Positions 35,840-47,440 of a stretch of 64,000 bases of DNA are shown here, in pieces; positions within the stretch are counted from its first letter, which is position 1; every line of letters begins with the position of its first letter. The notes below the pieces were generated by a model that saw only the letters and a program-made list of their open reading frames with translations, was not told where the DNA came from and made no database searches. This stretch comes from a bacterium (GTDB lineage Bacteria > Electryoneota > JAOADG01): positions 1,632,001-1,696,000 of the forward strand of contig OY820579.1 of NCBI GenBank assembly GCA_963681965.1. The letters are read 5' to 3'. Position numbers and translations under genes: made by a program.

Positions 35840-35913
35840 GCTGGGGTAGCTCAGTTGGTTAGAGCGCCAGACTGTGGATCTGGAGGTCGAGGGTTCAAGT
35901 CTCTCCCCCAGTA
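35840..35913 (+). tRNA. tRNA-His (GTG), integration target
   Basis: Arm CCAGA-CTGTGGA-TCTGG; acceptor GCTGGGG/CCCCAGT, discriminator A. Confidence 0.95.
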
Positions 35914-35914
35914 C
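35869..35914 (+). repeat. attL core (46 bp)
   Basis: AGACTGTGGATCTGGAGGTCGAGGGTTCAAGTCTCTCCCCCAGTAC, identical to 47395-47440. Confidence 0.95.
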
Positions 35915-36008
35915 TGATAAATAGAGATTTAAATCCGTTATCTCGATACCAAGTGCTAACGGTTTTAGGCAAAACTGCTAACGGTATTGTCACCTTTCCG
36001 AGGTCACT

Positions 36009-37040
36009 ATGCCGTTTTCTCTTTTTTTGCGAGGCTCCAAGTGGTACATGAAAGTAACCGAGAGTGGGAAAGTTCGATGGAAGTCTACCGGATGTACTGA
36101 TCACGCTGAAGCACAGAAGTTCCTTAGTGCTCATACTAGAAGTGTTTCCAAAAAACCAGCTAGAAAGCCACCAGAACCAATTCTCACCACGCAGTCGATC
36201 ACTTTATCGACTTTCATCGAACAGTATCTCGTATGGTCTTCTGCGAATCATCGTTCTGGATCGGTTGAGATTGTACAGCGATCATTAACGAACTTCAAGA
36301 ATGTGATTGGGGATCTCCCCTTAACAGCGATCAATAAACGACATGTCGATTACTTCAAATGTATCCGAATGGTTCAGATCAAACCGGTGACAGTGAATAT
36401 CGAATTGCGTACGATTCGCAGTGCCTTGTATCAAGCAAAGCGCTGGGGATTGCTTCAGGAAGTTCCGGTTAATGGTAAGGATATGTTCAAGCTGAGTTCC
36501 GATACGATTGCATTATCTGAGCAGGAAGTAACTCTGTTATTGTCTTCGATCAAAGAACCGTGGTTGAAGACGATTGTACTTGTCGCAGTGAATACGGGTA
36601 TGCGAAGAAATGAGTTGTGTAATCTTCGCTGGTCGGATATTGACCAAGAGAAAGGATTGCTCACTATTCATGAATCGAAATCGGGAAAAGCTCGCTGTAT
36701 TCCAATTCCTCCCTCGCTGATCGAAGCGGTGAAAGCAATCCGTAACCACAGTGAGTGGGTTTTCTCGATCGATGGAAAATTGAAAGTGAAAGGAGTTTGG
36801 GCGAGTCATTTGTTCAAGAAGTACTGCCGAAAATTGGGATTGTCCGAGAAAGTTCACTTCCACACGTTACGCCATACTTGTGCATCGATCATGGTTCGCA
36901 ATGGTGTCAGTCTCTACCATGCTTCCAAAGTGCTGGGACACTCCTCTGTGGTGGTTACCGAGAAATACTACGCTCACATGGGAGTAGAAGATCTAAGGGG
37001 TGCGGTGAATGTGGTGGGGGATAGGATTGTTTATTGTTAA
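36009..37040 (+). CDS. Tyrosine recombinase (phage-type integrase)
   Basis: TGMRRNE, SKSGK, HTLRH, LGHS, KYY catalytic motifs all present. Confidence 0.95.
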   Translation: MPFSLFLRGSKWYMKVTESGKVRWKSTGCTDHAEAQKFLSAHTRSVSKKPARKPPEPILTTQSITLSTFIEQYLVWSSANHRSGSVEIVQRSLTNFKNVIGDLPLTAINKRHVDYFKCIRMVQIKPVTVNIELRTIRSALYQAKRWGLLQEVPVNGKDMFKLSSDTIALSEQEVTLLLSSIKEPWLKTIVLVAVNTGMRRNELCNLRWSDIDQEKGLLTIHESKSGKARCIPIPPSLIEAVKAIRNHSEWVFSIDGKLKVKGVWASHLFKKYCRKLGLSEKVHFHTLRHTCASIMVRNGVSLYHASKVLGHSSVVVTEKYYAHMGVEDLRGAVNVVGDRIVYC

Positions 37041-37041
37041 T

Positions 37042-38175
37042 TCAATTTATTAATGCAACAACTTTAATTGTTATATTATCAATCAAATAATTTACAGAAG
37101 GGGGAATTGGAATTGCTATCAATGGATTAAAGAAAAGGAAGTTAATACCTCTAGCACTTTTAGAATTATTTTGGCTAGAAGGATAAATTATTCCATCAAA
37201 ACCATATTCGCGAATGGTTTGTGCTAAAAATTGAGTAACTAAATATTCAGTAGATTCGTCACTTGGTCGGATAGGTTCGCCAAACATTTTCCCTAAAGTT
37301 TCACGAGTTTCTAATACTTCTAGATATTTCAAAAATAGATCATAATGAGTGAACGGTGAATATTTTAGCGAAGTCTGACGAGGTAATAAGTCACATAATT
37401 TTACTTCTCTTTTTAGCTTAAACTTTGAAACAGATACAATATCTTTTTTCGCAGGACGTACCTCATTAATTGCAGTTAATACGCTATCAGCACAATACAA
37501 AAACGGTTGACCTAGAAGATTGGCTCGTCCAGCTCGCGCTTTTTCAGGAGGAGGAGCAATTATCGAAGAACCTGAATGATCTTTCCCGATTCTTGCACGC
37601 CACAAATCAACATTTTTTTGAAGAATAACATCAATCTTTTCCAAGAGTTCAATAAAGATTTTGAAACTATGACGTGTAGCATCATCTAGTTCAACAGTTG
37701 AAATAACCTTATTGAACGTCAACGAATGTCCATATTTTCTAATTGCTTTTTCTAGCAGAGACAAATAAGAGCTAATTGGGAAGTCTAATTTATCAGAATC
37801 ATCTCTATCGAACCAACTATCGGATAATTTAGCTCCATTCTTTGTAATTAAACCAGAATCTATTAAGATATTATCCAACAATTTACGCTGAGTAGTTTCC
37901 GCTAAGCTTAAAGAAAATACACTAAATCTATTTTGAAATTTAGACAGCAATGTTTCGCCTTCTTGAAATTTTCGACGAGAAGATAGAGAATAGTCAAAAT
38001 GAATAAAACTCCTATAGATTACTGGTGAGATCATTTCTCCTAGATCAGATGGCTCTAGACGATGAGTATTTATCTTTTTACAAAATGGACACTGTTCTTC
38101 TGAGAAAACACCATTTTCTCTAATAAATTCTTTAATACCTCTCTCTTGGAAACACCCATCGCAACATTCTACCAT
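37042..38175 (-). CDS. RES-domain protein with Cys-rich N-terminal domain
   Basis: WRAR, AGRAN, TAINEVRP, EYLVTQ..DGIIYPSS; N-terminal CCDGC...CPFC. Confidence 0.85.
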   Translation of the reverse strand: MVECCDGCFQERGIKEFIRENGVFSEEQCPFCKKINTHRLEPSDLGEMISPVIYRSFIHFDYSLSSRRKFQEGETLLSKFQNRFSVFSLSLAETTQRKLLDNILIDSGLITKNGAKLSDSWFDRDDSDKLDFPISSYLSLLEKAIRKYGHSLTFNKVISTVELDDATRHSFKIFIELLEKIDVILQKNVDLWRARIGKDHSGSSIIAPPPEKARAGRANLLGQPFLYCADSVLTAINEVRPAKKDIVSVSKFKLKREVKLCDLLPRQTSLKYSPFTHYDLFLKYLEVLETRETLGKMFGEPIRPSDESTEYLVTQFLAQTIREYGFDGIIYPSSQNNSKSARGINFLFFNPLIAIPIPPSVNYLIDNITIKVVALIN

Positions 38176-38192
38176 TTCTATCTCCTAAAATA

Positions 38193-38768
38193 TTAACCAT
38201 ATATAATTATTAACCAGATGATTAAACTAGTAATTAAAACGATAGTAATTTCTAAAGTTACCAAGCAACCCGCCTTCGTTTGTTGTGTGGAAGGATCGCG
38301 AGCTGTAGGTGTATCATTCTCGAAAGCATTTTCCCCCAGTGGTGGGCGTTCTATTGGTGGAAGTTCTTCAGTTATTACCTTTGAAGTTGGACTCCACATT
38401 TCTGGATTTACCCCACTCTTAGTAATTACCCGGTATTTCATTCTGTGGTTACGACAATAGATTTCACCGGCTTGAAGTTTCCTTGTGGTATTTGCGTCTT
38501 GAAATAGATGCTCCCCTTTGACTTCCCGTAGTTCTTTGGAGCCATCTAAAAGCTCCACAAAGAAATCTGGTTGATAACGCCCGGAAGCACCCCACCATTT
38601 AGTATAGGGAATCTCTACTCCGTGGTGGTGTGTCCATTTTGCAACAAGCGGGTCACGATCAAGCTCATCCATATACTGAAGTTCCCAACCGGAATCGAAC
38701 CATTCTCCCGCTTGTCCACGAGGACTCTTCCGCCAACCTCGCGACCATCCGCGCCGATAGCGAGCCAT
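38193..38768 (-). CDS. TnsA-like PD-(D/E)XK endonuclease with C-terminal transmembrane helix
   Basis: FDSGWE, IPY, YQPDFFV, EVKG; C-terminal ITIVLITSLIIWLIIIYG. Confidence 0.8.
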   Translation of the reverse strand: MARYRRGWSRGWRKSPRGQAGEWFDSGWELQYMDELDRDPLVAKWTHHHGVEIPYTKWWGASGRYQPDFFVELLDGSKELREVKGEHLFQDANTTRKLQAGEIYCRNHRMKYRVITKSGVNPEMWSPTSKVITEELPPIERPPLGENAFENDTPTARDPSTQQTKAGCLVTLEITIVLITSLIIWLIIIYG

Positions 38769-39115
38769 TATACCCGCCTTGAGACGATCTTAAAGATCAT
38801 CCCACGCTTTCGGCAAAACTCTTCACCGGCTTTCAATTTCCGTTCAGTGTCAGGATTACCACGCAGGTGTGTACCTTTTACCTCATGTATTTCCTTTGAG
38901 CCATCCTCACGCTCAATAATAAAATCAGGATTATATGTCGCTTTGGAGTGATCGAGTTTTAGGTAGGGAATTTTCAAAGATCGGCAGCGCTCCCACTTTT
39001 TAACGGTCTCATCCTCATCGAGCAAGAGCATATAGTCACGTTCCCATGTGGAATCGTAAGGTTCACTTTTCCGGGTACACCGCTTGAGATTACTGACTAT
39101 TCCGTGTTCACTCAT
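38768..39115 (-). CDS. TnsA-like PD-(D/E)XK endonuclease
   Basis: YDSTWE, IPY, YNPDFII, EVKG; overlaps both neighbours. Confidence 0.85.
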   Translation of the reverse strand: MSEHGIVSNLKRCTRKSEPYDSTWERDYMLLLDEDETVKKWERCRSLKIPYLKLDHSKATYNPDFIIEREDGSKEIHEVKGTHLRGNPDTERKLKAGEEFCRKRGMIFKIVSRRV

Positions 39116-41178
39116 GATTCTGGTGGATTGTCTAATATAGATTTTAAAAGCGTTCGGATATTAAACTCGTGTCGAATGTAATGTAAACTGTCTTGAAGCA
39201 TTAGCAGTTGTGCTTCCCGATCACATTGACCGATTGTCAGTCCACCTAAGAACTTTTCGCTAATGTGGTATAGAAGTACTGAATAGATTATTCCTCTACC
39301 ACTTGGCGGAAGCCCGTTATTGTATAGAAGTTCCTTAGCAATTTCAAGAAGTTGGTCACCGATTTCTGTTTGTCGCTGTTTGATCGAGAGCGTTTCCTTA
39401 GGAGTGTTAAAAAGATCATTAGAGGTACTTTCACTCTCCGAATAGACAGTAGATGTGACAAAGCCCGTTCCAGTTAAATCACGTTCACTTTCACCCGACC
39501 GAACCTCATTAGTTACCGAAATATATTGACGGGGGTATTCAATGGCGTGTAAGTAATCCTGCCAACTCCCTACGAAGGTTCTATCCTCGTCTTCGATAAT
39601 ATCAGGTAATTCGATTTCTTCTTCTTCCTCCTCAAGTACTGGTTCGGGTGTAATGATTGAATCGTCAGTTTCCTCCACAGTTTCGGGATTCCCTTCGTCA
39701 AGGTCGAGTGTCTCGGTCGCTCCAACATTCTCTTTTACATAAGCGTCAATTACCTTCCAAAGCCACCCGTGGTTAAGTTTCGGATGATCAACAACAACTA
39801 GACGTTCCTTTTCCTCCATATCTAAAGGAAACATTCGTCTCAGACCGCGCCCGATTACTTGTTGTCCGTATACCGGAGAGGAAAACTTGCGTAACAAAGC
39901 AATCACTGACACCGATCGAACGTCCCAACCTTCGCGTAACATCAGTACACTAACTACAGCATCGTAATTATTCTCGTCTTTCGGTGAACCGATTGTCATA
40001 GCGACACGTAATTCTTCCTTACGTTGTTCCGGGCTAATATCCGTTTCATCATCATCCTTTGAGGCAATGACAAAGGTATTCAAATGATGTTCCTCATCAA
40101 GGACTCGCTTTGCATTGTAAGCGTCTTTGATACTTACAGCGACCACAAAGAGAATCGGCTTGTATCTATCCTTTGCTCTTAATTTTTGCTCTTCAAGCCG
40201 CCTTACCGCCAGTTCCAATTGTTGTCGGAGTGGTTTGGGACTGGTTACCCACTTTGTAGCAGGAATTCGTTTGGCTTCAATTTCCTCCCACGGTATATCT
40301 TCCACTTTAACGACCGCTCCGGTTTCAGTATCGGTATAAGTCAGTTCCACAGTTTTTATATTCGGTTGACAAACATAAATTGTCTTTACGATACCGTCTT
40401 TTACGGCTTGTTTTATCCCGTATTCATAGATCATGCGACTACGAGGGTTTTCTTTGTCGGCGCGGTCTGGAGTCGCTGTAGTATCTACCCGTAGAAATGT
40501 TTTACCGGATTGTGAAAGAGAGTCAAGCAGTTCATCATACTTAGGCGCTACAGTATTGTGAGCTTCGTCATTGAACACAGCAATTCGCCCGGTGTGGTTC
40601 ATAATGACTGCGAAATTCTCAGCGCCTTGGTCACTAGAGGTATAGAGTTGGTGAATGTTACAAAGGGTTATCGAAGCATTTCGGATACCGGCACTACCTG
40701 AACCAGACTCCAATACATGGAGCACCATATCGTGAACAAAGTGAGCGTATTCCGGGGGAAAGAACTGGAACCGTTTCCACACGGAATCGTCACGATCCGG
40801 TTTTTCAAAGTCCTGTCGGAGCCGTTCTCTAACTATAGTATTCGGAGTAATGACGAGGAAAGCTCGAATCTCGTGACAAACCCGCAAATACGCCATCAGC
40901 GCCGCTATGATTGCAGTTTTACCGCCTCCGGTTACCACATTGAGGAGTAAATCCTTCCACCCTCGATCAACAGGTTTCAGGAATTCGTTGGCGAAAACAG
41001 TTCGAAGGAACGCTTCGGATTGATGTTTCCACAGTATTGGATGGTCTGCTGTCGTTGTTTCCAAAGCTAGGTGAGACAGGAAATCACGGACAATATCCGA
41101 GGTTTCGGGAGTACGAAAGCCGGATGTTACCCATGCTTGATAAGTTCGTAAATGCGAAGCCGTGAAGCTATTAAACAA
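39112..41178 (-). CDS. Type III restriction Res-like SF2 helicase with no C-terminal nuclease domain
   Basis: TGGGKT, NDEAHN, TATP, LREGWDV, QVIGRGLR; ends in an acidic linker and helical region with no PD..EXK. Confidence 0.85.
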   Translation of the reverse strand: MFNSFTASHLRTYQAWVTSGFRTPETSDIVRDFLSHLALETTTADHPILWKHQSEAFLRTVFANEFLKPVDRGWKDLLLNVVTGGGKTAIIAALMAYLRVCHEIRAFLVITPNTIVRERLRQDFEKPDRDDSVWKRFQFFPPEYAHFVHDMVLHVLESGSGSAGIRNASITLCNIHQLYTSSDQGAENFAVIMNHTGRIAVFNDEAHNTVAPKYDELLDSLSQSGKTFLRVDTTATPDRADKENPRSRMIYEYGIKQAVKDGIVKTIYVCQPNIKTVELTYTDTETGAVVKVEDIPWEEIEAKRIPATKWVTSPKPLRQQLELAVRRLEEQKLRAKDRYKPILFVVAVSIKDAYNAKRVLDEEHHLNTFVIASKDDDETDISPEQRKEELRVAMTIGSPKDENNYDAVVSVLMLREGWDVRSVSVIALLRKFSSPVYGQQVIGRGLRRMFPLDMEEKERLVVVDHPKLNHGWLWKVIDAYVKENVGATETLDLDEGNPETVEETDDSIITPEPVLEEEEEEIELPDIIEDEDRTFVGSWQDYLHAIEYPRQYISVTNEVRSGESERDLTGTGFVTSTVYSESESTSNDLFNTPKETLSIKQRQTEIGDQLLEIAKELLYNNGLPPSGRGIIYSVLLYHISEKFLGGLTIGQCDREAQLLMLQDSLHYIRHEFNIRTLLKSILDNPPES

Positions 41179-41187
41179 GGCAAACTC

Positions 41188-43326
41188 CTAGTGTACTTTG
41201 AGTACTTGGATTTTAATACCCTCACCACCAAGATCATCTTGAACCCGGCAAGCGATACTAACAGGTGTTCCGGGTTCCAGATCCTCGAAGGTGTATTCCA
41301 CAGTCAGCTCACCTTCAAAGCCACGCTCACCTTTGCCTTTCTTTTCTTTCCGACAAAGTTGAAACCCTTGTGTCGCTGAGAAGATTCCACCTCGGAAATC
41401 AAAGTCCCATTGCACATTGATTATCTTACCACCCATAACCGAACGTGCCTCCGATACATCGAAGCGATATTTCATGGTGCTTAAACGGGTTACACCAATT
41501 CTGGGAATTTCTGGAGGCAAGATAAAACGGAAGAAATCCTTGTACTTATCGTGTTTTTTCGTGACATGCTTCTTTAGTTCTTCGCCATCCAAAGACCACA
41601 ATTGAAGTTTGATGAACTGAATCGGTTTTTGTTTGCCCATTGCAACAAGTTTGTCGGCATAAGCCCGGGCACTCGGTAGAATAGTCCAACCAATCATAAC
41701 AGCTTGCCGTTCTTCCTGTCTACGGCTTTTCATCACAGCGCTTGCAAAGCCCTTTACGTCATTTGCATTAATCGCGTCCGTTTCCTTTACTCCACCGATC
41801 CAGAGTAATTCTCTCCCTTTCACGCCATGAATATTCGAGTCGGAACCAGTCCACTTCCGAGCACCATAACAAGCTAGAACAAACGCCCGGAATTCATCGT
41901 CACTCAGCTTTGTAAGTCGATCGATCTCGTAGATACCCCAATGCTCTACTGAGTAACCAGTATCCCGTAGGATTGAGGATTCTACAGCTTTCTTCTTAGA
42001 CGCCTCGACACTTGAAAGTGTAGGGTCTTCGATAATAAGACCTAATGGAGTAGAAAGTGTTTCTTCCTTCACTTTCTTTTTGGTTCGTTTTATATCTTGA
42101 AGTGAAGGAGCTAGAAGGCGTGCAATTCGGTCGGCAGTAAGAGCCACAGCCACACGGGATATATCACTTCCGATCCAACGTCTCCCGAGTCGGTGAGCAA
42201 CGGCGCAAGTTGCACCTCCGCCACAGAAGAAATCGGCAACAACATCATTTCTGTCTGTCGTTGCATTGATGATTCTTTCTAAGAGTTGCTCCGGTTTCTG
42301 AGTGGGGTAACCGATTTTTTCAATTGCTTGTGAATTTACTGGAGGTATGTCAATCCAGATCGATCCGACAGGAATCCCTTTAGATTCATCGAGATATCTT
42401 TTATAGGAAGGTTGACCATTTTTTGTAAATACTATACGACCATTTTTTAAGTATTCATCTATTGTCTCTTGTGTCCACTGCCAATGTCTACCAGTGGGTG
42501 GGCTTAAAAGTTGACCATTAAACAATCTAGCTGTTCCTTGTCCCGCTGCAGTAGCATCACCTAATCGGAACCTACGACCATCCGGATCTTCACCCGTATA
42601 ATGACTATCAACATATTTTGAAGTATGTTCACTGTATTGAGGATTGTGTTTTGGCTGTTTCGAATTGGAGTATAAGAAAATTATATCGTGAATATTTGCG
42701 AATCTTCTAGCGTCGCCGTGGATTGAAACTCTTTGCCAAACGATCTCGGTTATGAAATTGTCGTAACCGAATATTTTATCTAGTTCACATTTGACATAAT
42801 GACTCGCATGCCAATCAAGATGAACGTAAATGCTTCCAGTTGATTTGAGAAGCCGTTTCATCTCGTAGAGACGTGTATTCAACCAAATCAAGTAACCGGG
42901 CATTCCCCCTTCCCAGATATCCGAGAATGAACGAATTTCGTTTTTGTCGCCGAAAATGATATTGTAGTTTCGACCGGAAAAGAACGGAGGGTCAATGTAG
43001 ATAAGATCGATGGACTCACTGGGAAGCATTCTCATGACATGAAGATTGTCACCAAAAAAGAGCCGGTTACGACCTTGAGGAAATAGTTCATTAACTTTAC
43101 CGAGGCGCTCGGCTTGGGTTTTTACCACATCTACAACTTGAAAAGGGAGTTCGATACGGGGGTAGTGGTGCTCGAAGCGCCGTTCCGGGTCGTAACCAAG
43201 GGGTATCTCTGCAACTGGTACATGACCGAAGCGAGCCGGAATTTTGAAGAAACCTTTTTGTTCAGGTATCTCTACTGGTGAGATTATAGGTTGTTCCGGG
43301 ACTTCATCATCTAGGGGAGCCGACAT
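41188..43326 (-). CDS. Beta-class N6/N4 DNA methyltransferase (Type III Mod-like) with long C-terminal extension
   Basis: GDNL, IYIDPPF, YPTQKPE, DFFCGGG; likely start MSAPLDD at 43326. Confidence 0.92.
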   Translation of the reverse strand: MSAPLDDEVPEQPIISPVEIPEQKGFFKIPARFGHVPVAEIPLGYDPERRFEHHYPRIELPFQVVDVVKTQAERLGKVNELFPQGRNRLFFGDNLHVMRMLPSESIDLIYIDPPFFSGRNYNIIFGDKNEIRSFSDIWEGGMPGYLIWLNTRLYEMKRLLKSTGSIYVHLDWHASHYVKCELDKIFGYDNFITEIVWQRVSIHGDARRFANIHDIIFLYSNSKQPKHNPQYSEHTSKYVDSHYTGEDPDGRRFRLGDATAAGQGTARLFNGQLLSPPTGRHWQWTQETIDEYLKNGRIVFTKNGQPSYKRYLDESKGIPVGSIWIDIPPVNSQAIEKIGYPTQKPEQLLERIINATTDRNDVVADFFCGGGATCAVAHRLGRRWIGSDISRVAVALTADRIARLLAPSLQDIKRTKKKVKEETLSTPLGLIIEDPTLSSVEASKKKAVESSILRDTGYSVEHWGIYEIDRLTKLSDDEFRAFVLACYGARKWTGSDSNIHGVKGRELLWIGGVKETDAINANDVKGFASAVMKSRRQEERQAVMIGWTILPSARAYADKLVAMGKQKPIQFIKLQLWSLDGEELKKHVTKKHDKYKDFFRFILPPEIPRIGVTRLSTMKYRFDVSEARSVMGGKIINVQWDFDFRGGIFSATQGFQLCRKEKKGKGERGFEGELTVEYTFEDLEPGTPVSIACRVQDDLGGEGIKIQVLKVH

Positions 43327-43447
43327 TTTTAACCTCTGTGGTCTATGATGAATCAATATACAATAGGTTTCTATTCGATCCTTACAAACAAGTAACAATT
43401 TGTATTCTTCGCTTTATCAATCCCCCTACCCCTAAAATAATGCAATT

Positions 43448-43810
43448 CTAGTACCGACGGTACGAGCGGCGCGGGGGTTCTTTCACGCTAAATTCACGAC
43501 CGGAAGCGATCAAGAATAATATTTTGCTAATGGTCGGATCATCGGAACGATTCGCGATCCGCTTGGTCATCCATTCTGGAAGTGTCCCTTTTATTCGACA
43601 GACCTTCAACTGGTTCAGGTTAATCGAACGGGATAACGAATCTATCAACCACACTGGACAATCACAGACACCACGTTCCACAGAAGAGATGAATTGCTGC
43701 GTTACTTCCAGCTTACGAGCGAGTTCGGCTTGAGTGTAACCGTGATCGATTCTCGCTTTCCGAATCTCTTTCCCGATAAGTTCCCGTGTCGTTTGATCCT
43801 CGGTATCCAT
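43448..43810 (-). CDS. XRE-family helix-turn-helix regulator
   Basis: IRKARIDHGYTQAELARKLEVTQQFISSVERG. Confidence 0.88.
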   Translation of the reverse strand: MDTEDQTTRELIGKEIRKARIDHGYTQAELARKLEVTQQFISSVERGVCDCPVWLIDSLSRSINLNQLKVCRIKGTLPEWMTKRIANRSDDPTISKILFLIASGREFSVKEPPRRSYRRY

Positions 43811-43960
43811 GCTCTACCCCCTACCACAGTTGAAGTTCACCCTACCTAACAACCAATGAAGGATGAAGGATTCTCGCCCGAATTTCATTAGCACTTTATA
43901 TACCCATTTAAAAAATCCGATGAAAAATAGGTCTAAATCCATCATCCTTCACACTGCTTA

Positions 43961-46327
43961 TCAGGTTGACTGCTCCTCCGGTTTATTCAATGGTTTCAGT
44001 TGCAGACCCTTGAAGTAAATACCATCGGCTCTCTTGACCTTGGTGAACCCGTTGATCCTGACCAGACTCATCGAGAATGATTTCGGAGATATGCAAATCT
44101 CACCTTCACCGTACTCAGACTTCCACCATTCTTGAAAAGCAGCAAATAGATCAGCATGAGATACAGATCCTTGTTCGACGGTCTCACAGCATTCCTTCGT
44201 GAAACTGTAAACTTGATCGGTATCTTCCTGCCATGCCCGGGTAGCAAGTTGTACTTGTTCAGGCTCACTACCGAACCCCTTCTCGATGTGGTACTCATTC
44301 AATCCTTGAAGCGCCCACATGAGAACGCCATCCAACTCAGACTCGATGATTCTCTTGTCTAAGTCCATGATACGCTCTTGTTCAGGAATGTGAACCCGGA
44401 ACGGAATCACTCTTGCTCGATCCCAATACGCTTCATCGGCATCTCGCAATCGTGGGAGTTTATTGGTAGCGAACCAGACCTTGAACTGTGGTTTGAAGGT
44501 GAACTCGCGCTCATTCAGATTACGAGCATTGAGTGGATCGTTACCTGTTACTTGCTTGACAGCGTTCACACTCAACTGATACCCTTCATCACATTCCGAG
44601 ATGGTAACCAACCTTTTCCCATGGAGCATAGCTCGCTCTCGCTTCACTTCCAGATCTTTTCGATTGGAGGCAAAGGCTTCGAAACCGACACTCACACTGT
44701 AATCTCCAATGAGAGCCGAGATAACATTCAGGAAGGTAGATTTTCCTGTTGCCGTTTTATTGTCGAATACAAGCCACAGTTTTCGCTTGGGATTACCGCC
44801 CAAAAGCGTGTAACCGACACACTTCTGAACGTATCGAATCAGCTCTGAGTCATTGTTCAACGCATGCTTAATGAATCGTTCCCACTTTGGACACTTGGCA
44901 GAGGGATCATAGCTTCCATTGATACTCTTAGTGATATAATGTTCCCGGTCGAAATCTAATTGTACAAGCGTTCGAAGATCGATTGTACAGTTTCGGCAAG
45001 TAAGCAGGTACTCAATCTTATCGAGTTCTTCCACATTGACAGAAATATCCTCAACGACTCTGCAACTCTTTTCAATGCTAGATAGACCAGAACTCTCGTA
45101 AGCTCGTGTGACTGATTCAAGCAGTTTCTTACGTGTAGATCCGGATAAACTGCAGTATTTGCCAATCGATGATTGAACAAACAATCGCAGAGCAGAAAGT
45201 AGTACTACGTCTTCAACATGCTTCCACAGTTGACCTGTCCAGTGATACCATCGTCCTAGATTCGGTATAAATCGCCAATCCTGACCATGCGCCCCAATAA
45301 AGGCATCGGCAAACCACGCAAGCGGTAACTTCGAGCATTCATCCCAAACCTTCGGATCACGCCATTTAACCTCTTGAATCGATAGACTGGGCAAGGGAAA
45401 GTTCCCTCGATTACAAGCGCGCCTGATCGTTCGTTCCCGATAATCGCGACGTTCCCACTTATCAGCTCGGTACAATCCGGAAGCGTAAAAGACTTGCTCT
45501 ACCCAAGCTGGATCGTCTTTGATTCTAAGTAGCTTCGAACAGAGAGCAAGATCGGCTCGGCTTTCATCGAAATCGTAACGATCAGAGTTCCCTTCCCAGA
45601 GTTCGGTAAATATCTCATCCCGATCTATTGCACGTTGAATAATTCGCTCATCCTGTTCAGAGAGCTTGCGTGGTGTCGCTGTATTCACTTCTGAATGCCA
45701 CTCTACCGACTCGACAATGCTCTCAGTGAAATACTTACTGTGGAGAGTGTCGATTGCCTCCTGACGGGATTCTAGCGTTTTCGGGGTTCCTTCGAGATGA
45801 TTACCCGTTACAATAAAGAAACGACCGGTATCGTAGAACTCAATATCTTTGAAGCCGTATTCTTCCATTCCGTGTTTGTGACTAGTCTTCGTCAATTCAC
45901 CCTTGACTAGAATGTGGAAACCCTTACCGCTCTTCGACCATTCAGTATAACTGTTGGCAGTCTTAATGATCTCCAGCGCTTCGGGGACGATCTCACCGGT
46001 ATCATCCACGCACTTATCAAGATCGATACCGGTTATTCCACACTCTTTAGTAAAGACAAAGCCGATACCATCGAAACCACCTTTTTCATAGGCTCTGAGT
46101 ACTTCAGCATAAGGTTTCCACTTCGAAGGATCATTCACTTTTGCTTTGAAGCCGTTGATTTGATAGGGTGCTTTGTTTCTGTGGAGTACCCAGTTGGGTA
46201 TCTGGGTAAGCTCTTGGGGAATTGGGAGTTGTTGAAAATCAGGTTGTTGTTGATATTTTTCAGAATTTTGGGGATCCCCTCTTGCTTTTGTAGGAGTATC
46301 CACCTTACTTTGTTTTAAGGTTTTCAT
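43961..46327 (-). CDS. Primase-polymerase fused to a D5/SF3 helicase (P4-family / NrS-1-like)
   Basis: GIDLD, EWSKSGKGFHI, EFYDTGRF, DESRADLALC; helicase TGKST, KQVTGND, ATNKLP, YWDR. Confidence 0.9.
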   Translation of the reverse strand: MKTLKQSKVDTPTKARGDPQNSEKYQQQPDFQQLPIPQELTQIPNWVLHRNKAPYQINGFKAKVNDPSKWKPYAEVLRAYEKGGFDGIGFVFTKECGITGIDLDKCVDDTGEIVPEALEIIKTANSYTEWSKSGKGFHILVKGELTKTSHKHGMEEYGFKDIEFYDTGRFFIVTGNHLEGTPKTLESRQEAIDTLHSKYFTESIVESVEWHSEVNTATPRKLSEQDERIIQRAIDRDEIFTELWEGNSDRYDFDESRADLALCSKLLRIKDDPAWVEQVFYASGLYRADKWERRDYRERTIRRACNRGNFPLPSLSIQEVKWRDPKVWDECSKLPLAWFADAFIGAHGQDWRFIPNLGRWYHWTGQLWKHVEDVVLLSALRLFVQSSIGKYCSLSGSTRKKLLESVTRAYESSGLSSIEKSCRVVEDISVNVEELDKIEYLLTCRNCTIDLRTLVQLDFDREHYITKSINGSYDPSAKCPKWERFIKHALNNDSELIRYVQKCVGYTLLGGNPKRKLWLVFDNKTATGKSTFLNVISALIGDYSVSVGFEAFASNRKDLEVKRERAMLHGKRLVTISECDEGYQLSVNAVKQVTGNDPLNARNLNEREFTFKPQFKVWFATNKLPRLRDADEAYWDRARVIPFRVHIPEQERIMDLDKRIIESELDGVLMWALQGLNEYHIEKGFGSEPEQVQLATRAWQEDTDQVYSFTKECCETVEQGSVSHADLFAAFQEWWKSEYGEGEICISPKSFSMSLVRINGFTKVKRADGIYFKGLQLKPLNKPEEQST

Positions 46328-46931
46328 TAGAGTGCACCTCTTTTAGATGACCTTGCGTATGCTCATGGTGTGACAGCACTGTGAGCATTTTTTTCGGCTA
46401 ATCCATTCGAATTGAATTACACCGAAACGAATTACTTTTGTCGATTCAACGACAATCCAAATATAAGGAATATATTTGGAAAATCCAATATATTATTTGC
46501 TTATAAAGTCAATTTTGAGTGATCGTATCGCTTTGAATTATAGTCGAATATAATATTCATATTGATATTAGGATTGGTTGTGAAAATTATTGATTGGCGC
46601 GGTCTATAGGTATCAATTGCAAGATCACAAACAGATTTTTGCACTAAATTGTGACTAGAAAAATACAACTCTTTTCTACTGACTCTCGGAGAGTTTCCAC
46701 GTTCAGAGGTCAGTATTTATCGGGGTGTGTTCTTGTTCGAGTAATCTGACTATTGACAAACTATGCGATTTCCGGGGGGAGATCAAGTCACCAAGATACA
46801 TCGGTAAGTTTGCATTTACTTTTCAAGATAATCGAACAATCGAGGAAGAGTATATCGGTGAATGGCGGGGATAGCTTTCTGTGTAAATTGGAAATGTATC
46901 ATTTCATGTACGTTTGTAGAGAGGATTCGAA

Positions 46932-47144
46932 ATGGGAGTAGTTAATTTTCTTTCCGATAAATCGGGACGTGTTTGGGCAGTACCCACCTCACCTGAAAAA
47001 TCACCTTGGGTTCTTTCCGATCCCAAAGGTGGTAATTGGACTGAAGCACCTCGTTCCAAAGTACCAGAAAAGTTGGTTCCATTAGACTCTAGTGGTACAA
47101 CTGAAGCAACACGTTCATTTGTAGCATACGGATTGCGTTCGTAA
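46932..47144 (+). CDS. Small hypothetical protein (70 aa)
   Basis: ATG preceded by GAGAGGA; the only plausible ORF at the right end of the element. Confidence 0.45.
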   Translation: MGVVNFLSDKSGRVWAVPTSPEKSPWVLSDPKGGNWTEAPRSKVPEKLVPLDSSGTTEATRSFVAYGLRS

Positions 47145-47394
47145 ATGTCTTTCCATCCAGTTTCTGATCAAGGATAATTTATTTGACCAAATTCTCGTTG
47201 AGTAAATTCTCGGTAATCGATACCCCAAAATGAATCCCAACCTCCCTCTTGACTTTGACTCGGGAATTTTCGAGATTAGTGCTAACGGTTCGCACCCAAA
47301 ATTCATCGATACCGTTAGCAGTTGTCGCTAAAAAAATCTCTGGAAATCGTTAATTATCAGTAGCTAAGAGGGTGTATCAGCGCTGGCGAATCAA

Positions 47395-47440
47395 AGACTG
47401 TGGATCTGGAGGTCGAGGGTTCAAGTCTCTCCCCCAGTAC
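47395..47440 (+). repeat. attR core (46 bp duplicate of tRNA-His 3' half)
   Basis: Identical to 35869-35914. Confidence 0.95.

What the first reader, a model, noticed from the sequence alone, without database searches (positions are those of the whole stretch)
38193..38768. Membrane-anchored paralogue of the restriction-type nuclease
Seen: nuclease B keeps the catalytic PD and EVK residues, adds an Arg/Trp-rich N-terminus (MARYRRGWSRGWRK), a Pro/Thr linker and a strongly hydrophobic C-terminal helix with no signal peptide. Inference: a tail-anchored cytoplasmic nuclease that could cut DNA at the site of entry or tether the complex to the inner membrane, which is unusual for restriction enzymes.
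Basis: partly seen in the sequence, partly recalled or inferred. Interest (0 to 1): 0.75.

Follow-up and report, generated by a model that had tools for sequence, protein, structure and literature searches.

The report
Membrane-anchored nuclease in split restriction system
A family of bacterial restriction-like operons carries a duplicated DNA-cutting subunit, one copy soluble and one with a conserved tail predicted to anchor it in the cell membrane, which may let the system cut foreign DNA where it enters, though no activity has been measured.

Summary
The 191-aa ORF (38193-38768, minus strand) is a TnsA-like PD-(D/E)XK nuclease, 43% identical to upstream nuclease A, with E29, D68 and E82-x-K84 intact, a disordered Pro-rich linker and a C-terminal hydrophobic helix (169-190). 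The tail is conserved: 43 of 54 homologues have it; none of 73 A homologues or 9 fused Res subunits does. Tail sequences are 22% identical against 77% for the core, yet stay hydrophobic; the core is under purifying selection (dN/dS 0.06). The gene ends an operon Mod - Res helicase lacking its nuclease - A - B, a split Type III-like restriction-modification system on an 11.5-kb tRNA-His island. Of 37 genome loci, 10 carry B and 27 a single soluble nuclease; A and B are sister paralogues from one duplication. The Arg/Trp N-terminus is not an addition but part of the fold. Membrane-bound defence nucleases are known (SNIPE, Mpr); ten literature searches found none as an R-M subunit. Binding to Res and cutting at DNA entry are inferred, not shown. 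New variant of a known kind.

The parts
38193..38768 (-). Nuclease B, 191 aa: TnsA-like PD-(D/E)XK nuclease with C-terminal membrane anchor
   Evidence: ORF; Pfam PF08722; model; TnsA fold Z 10.6, rmsd 3.5, 114 aligned; 54 homologues
38715..38768 (-). B residues 1-18, basic and Trp-rich N-terminal segment; homologous to the N-terminus of A, part of the nuclease fold, not a signal peptide
   Evidence: dN/dS 0.09
38418..38714 (-). B residues 19-117, nuclease core with E29, P67-D68, E82-V83-K84 and a Trp-Trp hairpin tip (W58, W59) specific to B
   Evidence: Motifs in 51 of 52 homologues; column table; dN/dS 0.06
38271..38393 (-). B residues 126-166, disordered Pro-rich linker (33-53 residues in the family, counted from the core end)
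   Evidence: pLDDT about 50-57; 27% pairwise identity and length range
38199..38264 (-). B residues 169-190, predicted single C-terminal transmembrane helix, preceded by a Gly-Cys motif (167-168)
   Evidence: KD19 2.53; helix in model; Gly-Cys in 33 of 42 TM-bearing members
38768..39115 (-). Nuclease A, 115 aa, soluble paralogue; stop overlaps B's start, start overlaps Res stop
   Evidence: no hydrophobic segment in 73 of 73 full-length members
39112..41178 (-). Res-like SF2 helicase, 688 aa, intact motifs (TGGGKT, DEAH, TAT, LREGWD, QVIGRGLR), ending in a helical domain with no nuclease
   Evidence: Pfam ResIII; PADLOC REase_III 2.4e-13; alignment; model
41188..43398 (-). Mod-like beta-class amino-methyltransferase (DPPF before FxGGG; variable target-recognition region between them); probable start at 43326
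   Evidence: TRD 24-28% identical against 59-96% elsewhere among 7 B-clade Mods
37042..38175 (-). RES-domain protein right after B; no match in any of the 37 related loci, so probably accessory cargo
   Evidence: Pfam RES
36009..37040 (+). Tyrosine integrase of the island
43448..43810 (-). XRE/HTH_3 regulator upstream of Mod
43961..46327 (-). P4-family primase-helicase (D5_N, NrS-1-like HBD) of the island
35840..35914 (+). tRNA-His, integration site; its 3' part forms the left attachment repeat
47395..47440 (+). Right attachment repeat: 46 nt identical to 35869-35914, bounding an 11.5-kb island
   Evidence: (53-nt repeat at 94%)

Best explanation
B is the second nuclease subunit of a split Type III-like restriction-modification system. 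Shown by sequence: the Res subunit is split into a helicase and a free-standing nuclease; in one clade that nuclease duplicated, A stayed soluble, and B gained a Pro-rich linker and a C-terminal hydrophobic helix while keeping its active site under purifying selection. Predicted: B sits in the cytoplasmic membrane with the nuclease facing the cytoplasm. Inferred mechanism: Mod methylates host sites; on unmethylated foreign DNA the Mod-Res complex is switched on by ATP and slides. Type III enzymes need two converging nuclease domains to cut, and B supplies a nuclease at the membrane, either as the partner of a Res-A complex or in place of A. Cutting is thereby favoured on DNA entering through the envelope, and B is kept away from the nucleoid.
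For: Res lacks a nuclease and ends in a helical domain, like the spacer that precedes the nuclease in EcoP15I (PMC4490356, passages). Of 13 longer homologues of the A/B profile, 9 are ResIII helicases with this nuclease fused at the C-terminus, none with a hydrophobic segment; NCBIfam BPTD_3080 matches Res at its positions 529-618 and A/B at 858-937. The order Res-A-B, or Res-B in L006, holds in 8 of 10 B loci; the other 2 lie at a contig start or are damaged. Genes overlap at stops and starts. Mod (7 of 21 rows) and Res (9 of 27 rows) of B loci each form one clade; A and B are sisters, 99/98. Catalytic motifs are in 51 of 52 B homologues and core dN/dS is 0.06. The tail is present in 43 of 54 and is conserved by property, not sequence. 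Known defence genes are inserted between Mod and Res in several loci. A single activated Type III nuclease cannot nick without a partner (PMC6158743, abstract). SNIPE shows that a membrane anchor can confine a nuclease to injected DNA (PMC13190303).
Against: No activity, localisation or interaction was measured. B is dispensable for the wider family: 27 of 37 loci have one soluble nuclease only. B has no large periplasmic part and no extra domain like SNIPE's DUF4041 that could find an injection site; at most 13 residues follow the helix. 11 of 54 homologues lack the transmembrane helix: 4 look truncated, and 7 end in a short basic-hydrophobic segment whose amphipathicity is significant in only 2 of 9 tested. 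In L008 and L010 B starts at ACG, and L008's Res is interrupted, so B may be weakly expressed or decaying there. The sister relation of A and B is the best tree, but the alternatives are not rejected (AU p 0.11 and 0.12). PADLOC scores Mod higher as Type II (4e-64) than as Type III (1.5e-47).
Confidence: 0.45

Rival explanations
1. B is an autonomous, SNIPE-like membrane nuclease that travels in the R-M operon but cuts incoming DNA without Res or methylation sensing, using its Trp- and Arg-rich surface to bind DNA near the membrane.
For: B has a surface of its own: mean 6.8 Trp in the first 118 residues against 2.0 in A and 3 in single nucleases; W8, W12, W58, W59 and W125 are 92-100% conserved in B only. 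SNIPE works as a single protein.
Against: B was never found away from the operon: A or Res adjoins it in 10 of 10 genome loci, and 18 of 53 database hits share a contig length with an A hit against 0.6 by chance (a proxy). It has no targeting domain beyond the minimal nuclease.
Confidence: 0.2
2. B is a latent back-up killer: the membrane keeps it off the chromosome until a trigger (anti-restriction protein, linker proteolysis, membrane damage) frees or activates it, causing abortive infection.
For: The long disordered linker could be cleaved. Removing SNIPE's anchor makes it cut host DNA. The operon hosts other abortive-type cargo such as a ThsB-like TIR with a membrane effector in L007.
Against: No protease, sensor or antitoxin is conserved beside B in the 10 loci; the linker keeps no motif beyond P-x-x-W and Gly-Cys.
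Confidence: 0.15
3. B is a regulator: it binds Res in place of A and parks it at the membrane, lowering self-restriction while a newly arrived island methylates the host.
For: B keeps features of the ancestral nuclease that A lost (T46 and H49 of W-T-x-x-H). The operon moves between distant phyla, where restriction must be delayed.
Against: A pure sink would not need an invariant active site (51 of 52). In L006, A is reduced to a 16-codon remnant while Mod, Res and B are intact and B's core shows dN/dS 0.05 against L002, which fits B being a working nuclease.
Confidence: 0.12
4. B processes DNA for the mobile element or for uptake (non-defence), for example nicking during transfer.
For: The window copy is on an integrated element with integrase and primase; the closest solved fold is the transposase subunit TnsA.
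Against: None of the 10 B loci shows a match to the window's integrase or primase (relatives too distant for BLAST would be missed); B follows Mod and Res rather than mobility genes.
Confidence: 0.06
5. The hydrophobic tail is a chance read-through extension with no function.
For: The tail is poorly conserved in sequence (22%) and its dN/dS is about 0.5 on few changes.
Against: It is present in 43 of 54 homologues at a steady distance from the core; 375 of 428 replacements of a hydrophobic residue stay hydrophobic against 45 of 129 in the linker (pairs not independent); it is in frame in genomes of at least six phyla.
Confidence: 0.02

Closest known systems
Type III restriction-modification enzymes (EcoP15I, EcoP1I)
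   Same: Beta-class Mod with a variable target-recognition region, SF2 Res helicase, PD-(D/E)XK nuclease homologous to the Res C-terminal domain.
   Different: Nuclease split off as a separate gene and duplicated; one copy has a C-terminal membrane helix; Res matches EcoP15I Res only weakly (E 2.6e-5).
SNIPE (PD-lambda-1), PMC13190303
   Same: Single-pass inner-membrane anchor with a cytoplasmic nuclease; homologues vary in anchor, some lacking a transmembrane helix (sections 5 and 9 read).
   Different: SNIPE is a stand-alone GIY-YIG nuclease with an N-terminal anchor and a DUF4041 domain; B is a minimal PD-(D/E)XK domain with a C-terminal anchor inside a methyltransferase-helicase operon.
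Mpr of mycobacteria, PMC12596739
   Same: Membrane-localised anti-phage nuclease whose localisation is needed for defence (passages).
   Different: Unrelated domains (DUF4352), N-terminal anchoring, no R-M context.
RmuC and COG4741 (PMC1189080)
   Same: PD-(D/E)XK nucleases with a predicted membrane helix and cytosolic nuclease; COG4741 was proposed as a guard against foreign DNA (passages).
   Different: N-terminal helices, other subfamilies (McrC-like, YraN-like), not described as R-M subunits.
Tn7 TnsA N-terminal domain family (PF08722)
   Same: Best sequence and structure match; D68 and K84 align with TnsA D114 and K132.
   Different: No TnsA C-terminal domain and no TnsB/TnsC neighbours; far below the NCBIfam TnsA-like cut-off (21.5 against 110).
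Zorya type I and Kiwa (PMC12904381, passages)
   Same: Membrane component combined with soluble DNA-binding or nuclease-helicase parts to act at the injection site.
   Different: Their membrane parts are multi-pass sensors; here the anchor is a single helix on a nuclease, beside a methyltransferase.

Membership tests
PD-(D/E)XK nuclease, TnsA-like N-terminal (PF08722) | Profile match above the curated cut-off | tested here: met
   44.9 bits against 26.5
PD-(D/E)XK nuclease, TnsA-like N-terminal (PF08722) | Restriction-endonuclease-like fold with E...PD...(D/E)xK active site | tested here: met
   TnsA 1t0f Z 10.6, rmsd 3.5, 114 aligned; Foldseek E 1.3e-5; motifs in 51 of 52
PD-(D/E)XK nuclease, TnsA-like N-terminal (PF08722) | Metal-dependent DNA cleavage | not testable with these tools
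   Needs an assay
Tn7-type TnsA transposase subunit | C-terminal TnsA domain and TnsB/TnsC neighbours | tested here: not met
   Only PF08722 found; neighbours are Mod, Res, RES and a tyrosine integrase
Type III restriction-modification system | Beta-class Mod with variable target-recognition domain | tested here: met
   DPPF before FxGxG in 21 of 21 Mods; variable region between them. PADLOC's best model is nonetheless MTase_II
Type III restriction-modification system | Res subunit with SF2 helicase motifs, encoded after Mod | tested here: met
Type III restriction-modification system | Nuclease fused to the Res C-terminus in one polypeptide | tested here: not met
   Res ends at 688 aa without nuclease; nuclease is a separate gene here and in every related locus with a Res match. 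Hence 'split Type III-like', not canonical Type III
Type III restriction-modification system | Mod2Res complex, ATP-dependent cleavage needing two inverted sites, one-strand methylation | not testable with these tools
   Needs biochemistry and methylome data
Tail-anchored membrane protein | Single hydrophobic helix at the extreme C-terminus | tested here: met
   KD19 2.53 with 2 residues following; approximate insertion energy -3.8 on a recalled scale, negative in 43 of 52 homologues against at least +8 in 73 of 73 A proteins
Tail-anchored membrane protein | No N-terminal Sec or Tat signal | tested here: met
   No hydrophobic region in 52 of 52; RR in 10 of 52; simple scans only, no SignalP
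Tail-anchored membrane protein | Membrane localisation with N-in topology in the cell | not testable with these tools
   Needs fractionation or reporter fusions
SNIPE | N-terminal TM + DUF4041 + GIY-YIG nuclease | tested here: not met
   No such Pfam match; different fold and anchor position
CTERM sorting signals (MYXO-CTERM, GlyGly-CTERM and the like) | NCBIfam CTERM profile match plus N-terminal export signal | tested here: not met
   0 of 49 members match a CTERM model at E up to 1; no signal peptide

The most novel reading that the evidence does not exclude
This is a restriction-modification system that joins methylation-based and location-based self/non-self discrimination: a double-strand break forms only when an ATP-activated Mod-Res-A complex sliding on unmethylated DNA meets the membrane-anchored nuclease B, so that cutting is confined to DNA threading through the envelope, and some lineages have swapped the transmembrane tail for an amphipathic membrane-binding helix.
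Probability: 0.25. Interest if true: 0.9.

Novelty: new variant of a known kind. Interest (0 to 1): 0.7.

Why it matters
Restriction-modification enzymes are treated as soluble, and how they spare transiently unmethylated host DNA while catching an invader early is an old question. A family with a split nuclease, and a clade in which that nuclease duplicated into a soluble and a tail-anchored copy, offers a natural comparison: single-nuclease operons (27 loci), A+B operons, an A-less operon (L006) and tail variants. Each part can be deleted separately, which fused Res subunits do not allow. If B works as proposed, it links classical restriction to the membrane-localised defence recently shown for SNIPE, Zorya and Kiwa. 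Current annotation (TnsA endonuclease domain protein; weak PADLOC scores) would miss these operons as defence systems.

Tried and rejected
Complex prediction of Res with B residues 1-130 gave no verdict (runs 0.69, 0.00, 0.00; median under the mark) and is used neither for nor against binding. Names and sources of the database homologues could not be looked up, so their hosts are unknown; taxonomy rests on the GTDB loci. Plasmid and phage collections hold no full-length B: 1 plasmid and 63 phage records match only the core, at 27.6% for the plasmid and 30-36% for the 20 phage rows listed; Res has only distant plasmid matches (20 records, none covering 80%). ESM Atlas returned only generic TnsA-like clusters under 0.9 and nothing for the tail. 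Tat or Sec export and CTERM sorting were rejected. A Tn7-type transposase role was rejected on context and missing domain. The first AU test (p 0.001) is confounded by outgroup rows mixed among the single nucleases and is not relied on; the cleaner test does not reject the alternatives. The idea that tail-less homologues use an amphipathic helix got mixed support: 2 of 7 in the first shuffle test, 2 of 9 in the second, with a combined p of 3.5e-4 on non-independent sequences. Foldseek on the Res model gave generic SF2 helicases, with EcoP15I Res at rank 33. Ten literature searches listed no description of this operon, and searches returned 0 papers; the library lacks most subscription journals and REBASE was not available. 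The Type I review PMC3874165 has no occurrence of 'membrane', so membrane association of Type I enzymes, which I recall from older work, was not confirmed here.

Full report
Observation. The ORF at 38193-38768 (minus strand) encodes 191 residues. Pfam assigns residues 40-116 to the TnsA-like endonuclease family above its cut-off. It is 43% identical over 99 residues to the 115-aa nuclease A directly upstream. The AlphaFold2 model (mean pLDDT 81, 49-row alignment) shows a confident alpha/beta core at about 20-120, a low-confidence linker and a helix at 169-190. The core matches Tn7 TnsA best by Foldseek (E 1.3e-5) and by the wide structural search (Z 10.6, rmsd 3.5, 114 aligned, next rows 6.6). 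D68 and K84 align with TnsA D114 and K132; that these are TnsA's catalytic residues is recalled. The Arg/Trp N-terminus is a Trp-enriched version of a segment that A and the single nucleases also have, and the family linker is Pro-rich rather than Pro/Thr.

The tail is a family trait. The homologue search gave 54 proteins including the query, among 89 candidates of 105-335 aa. 43 of 54 have a 19-residue window of mean hydropathy 2.16-3.41 ending at most 13 residues from the C-terminus. Of the other 11, four look truncated or broken (P0021, P0033, P0053, P0054) and seven end in a short basic-hydrophobic segment. None of 73 full-length A homologues exceeds 0.98. Of 145 new proteins among the best 150 of 2363 hits in the representative library, only 3 have such a segment, all B-family. 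Among the 42 TM-bearing rows of the 49-row alignment, mean pairwise identity is 77% in the core, 27% in the linker and 22% in the helix; a Gly-Cys precedes the helix in 33 of 42. On three independent close pairs of loci, dN/dS is 0.06 for the core (24/693 non-synonymous, 81/195 synonymous), 0.21 for the linker and 0.50 for the tail (21/162, 17/72). Across all non-window pairs, which are not independent, 375 of 428 replacements of a hydrophobic tail residue stay hydrophobic, against 45 of 129 in the linker. This is the pattern of an anchor kept for its physical property. The three catalytic motifs are present together in 51 of 52 B homologues. Hydrophobicity scales were recalled, and no dedicated topology predictor was available.

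Context in the window. B is the fourth gene of an operon: a beta-class methyltransferase (41188-43398), an SF2 helicase of the ResIII family (39112-41178), A and B, followed by a RES-domain gene. Res, A and B overlap at their stops and starts. The operon lies on an 11.5-kb island bounded by a 46-nt identical repeat of the tRNA-His 3' end, with a tyrosine integrase, an HTH regulator and a P4-family primase; GC drops to 38-46%. The helicase has all its motifs but stops after a helical domain. In EcoP15I a helical spacer leads into the nuclease at that point (PMC4490356, passages). The NCBIfam model of a 970-aa restriction enzyme matches Res in its middle and A and B at positions 858-937. A search for longer proteins scored 8000 candidates and returned 13; 9 are ResIII helicases with this nuclease fused at the C-terminus, and none of the 9 has a hydrophobic segment. 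The system is therefore a Type III-like R-M system with a split Res subunit. It fails the canonical fused-nuclease criterion, and PADLOC scores Mod higher as Type II, so I do not file it as a standard Type III member.

Context elsewhere. One scan of GTDB genomes with a mixed A+B profile gave 37 loci. Ten carry B. Seven have intact A before it; L006 has Res-B with A reduced to a 16-codon remnant; L003 and L009, from one genome, lie at contig starts and are partial or damaged. Mod is seen in 6 of the 10, the other four contigs ending too early. Every intact A (7 of 7) is followed by B. The remaining 27 loci have one soluble nuclease of 87-119 aa by alignment, 26 of them after a Res match, and none has a B-like gene downstream, with at least 545 nt available. 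Res (9 of 27 rows) and Mod (7 of 21 rows) from B loci each form one fully supported clade. A and B are each monophyletic and sisters (99/98), nested among the single nucleases when fused Res nucleases are the outgroup, although AU tests do not reject A or B grouping with the singles (p 0.11, 0.12). The simplest history is fission, then one tandem duplication, then gain of the anchor, followed by spread among Eisenbacteria, Desulfobacterota, Nitrospirota, Kiritimatiellota, Verrucomicrobiota and WOR-3 (record titles). The Mod target-recognition region is 24-28% identical among B-clade Mods against 59-96% elsewhere, as expected for specificity swapping. In 6 of 6 B loci where both genes are seen, 2-4 kb of cargo separate Mod and Res, including Ppl-like, ThsB-TIR, HEC-01-like and other PADLOC candidates. 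The scan rests on two exact peptide patterns and one genome per species, so these counts are a sample, not a census.

Mechanism. Shown by sequence: intact active site under selection, conserved C-terminal hydrophobic helix, fixed place in the operon. Predicted: tail-anchored topology with the nuclease in the cytoplasm; such proteins exist in E. coli (PMC6794478, abstract). Inferred: function with Res. Type III cleavage needs two converging, ATPase-activated nucleases, and one alone cannot nick (PMC6158743, abstract). A second nuclease held at the membrane could be that partner, or could replace A on Res, and so bias cutting to entering DNA. L006, where Mod, Res and B persist without A and B's core is still constrained (dN/dS 0.05 against L002), fits B being able to serve Res, but a recent loss of restriction explains it equally well. 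Against this reading, B has no targeting domain, most relatives manage without it, and in L008 and L010 it begins at ACG. I give this mechanism 0.45, an autonomous SNIPE-like role 0.2, a latent abortive nuclease 0.15, a regulatory sink 0.12, a mobility role 0.06 and an artefact 0.02. That B is a real, tail-anchored, catalytically intact operon member I put at about 0.9.

Comparison with what is known. SNIPE is the nearest working analogue: a single-pass membrane nuclease that cuts injected DNA, is toxic without its anchor, and has homologues with other membrane-targeting devices (PMC13190303, abstract and sections 5 and 9). It differs in fold, anchor position and lack of R-M partners. Mpr (PMC12596739, passages), Zorya and Kiwa (PMC12904381, passages) also act at the membrane. 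PD-(D/E)XK proteins with membrane helices were predicted long ago (RmuC, COG4741; PMC1189080, passages). The survey PMC3424549 lists domain architectures with transmembrane elements in supplements that I did not read and that may bear on novelty (passages). PMC4158269 (passages) and PMC3874165 (one passage) added nothing. Ten searches listed no account of a split Res operon with a duplicated, tail-anchored nuclease; subscription journals and REBASE were not covered.

Verdict. The feature is real, conserved and not explained by any annotated family. It is a new variant of a known kind: a split Type III-like R-M system with a membrane-anchored second nuclease. Interest 0.7; the natural variants make the mechanism directly testable.

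Noticed in passing
L011-L037; window 38768-41178: A wider family of Type III-like operons in which the Res nuclease is a separate gene of about 115 aa (26 of 27 single-nuclease loci have a Res match upstream), in Chloroflexota, Verrucomicrobiota, Actinomycetota, Nitrospirota and others; it scores only weakly in PADLOC.
   Followed up: partly
L001 5878-7823; L005 2457-6516; L006 5121-7802; L007 4913-7818; L008 3756-7241; L010 3909-6059; L011 3876-7950; L012 915-4828: The gap between Mod and Res is a cargo hotspot: Ppl-like, ThsB-TIR with a small membrane effector, AAA ATPases, AlbA_2, HEC-01-like pair, PDC-M41A-like with radical SAM, DUF3800, Mrr-STAND fusion.
   Followed up: partly
L006 9954-10001: Nuclease A is reduced to a 16-codon in-frame remnant that keeps the overlaps with the Res stop and the B start.
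   Followed up: partly
L008 about 10070; L010 about 8675: B begins at an ACG overlapping A's stop (TGACG) in both loci; automatic annotation would start it at the internal Met33.
   Followed up: no
P0030, P0040, P0045, P0047, P0048, P0050, P0051, P0148, P0150: B homologues whose transmembrane tail is replaced by a short basic-hydrophobic segment resembling an amphipathic membrane-targeting helix (likeness to MinD's is recalled); they fall in several places on the tree, at least two forced by supported branches.
   Followed up: partly
window 35840-47440: 11.5-kb island at tRNA-His with integrase, P4-family primase-helicase and HTH regulator, plus a 25-nt inverted repeat near both ends (35963-35987, 47309-47333); satellite-like, no capsid genes seen.
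   Followed up: partly
window 37042-38175: RES-domain protein with an N-terminal Cys-pair region directly after B; no match in the 37 related loci.
   Followed up: no
L003 797-1378; L009 1235-1693: A patatin-like phospholipase (PADLOC effector model) overlaps the end of B in both copies from one Verrucomicrobiota genome.
   Followed up: no
L031 10034-10297: A lone nuclease of this family in a Nitrosopumilus chromosome with no Mod or Res match nearby.
   Followed up: no
window 38592-38597 (B residues 58-59): A Trp-Trp pair at a beta-hairpin tip, 92% conserved in B and absent from A and the single nucleases; could contact membrane or DNA bases.
   Followed up: no
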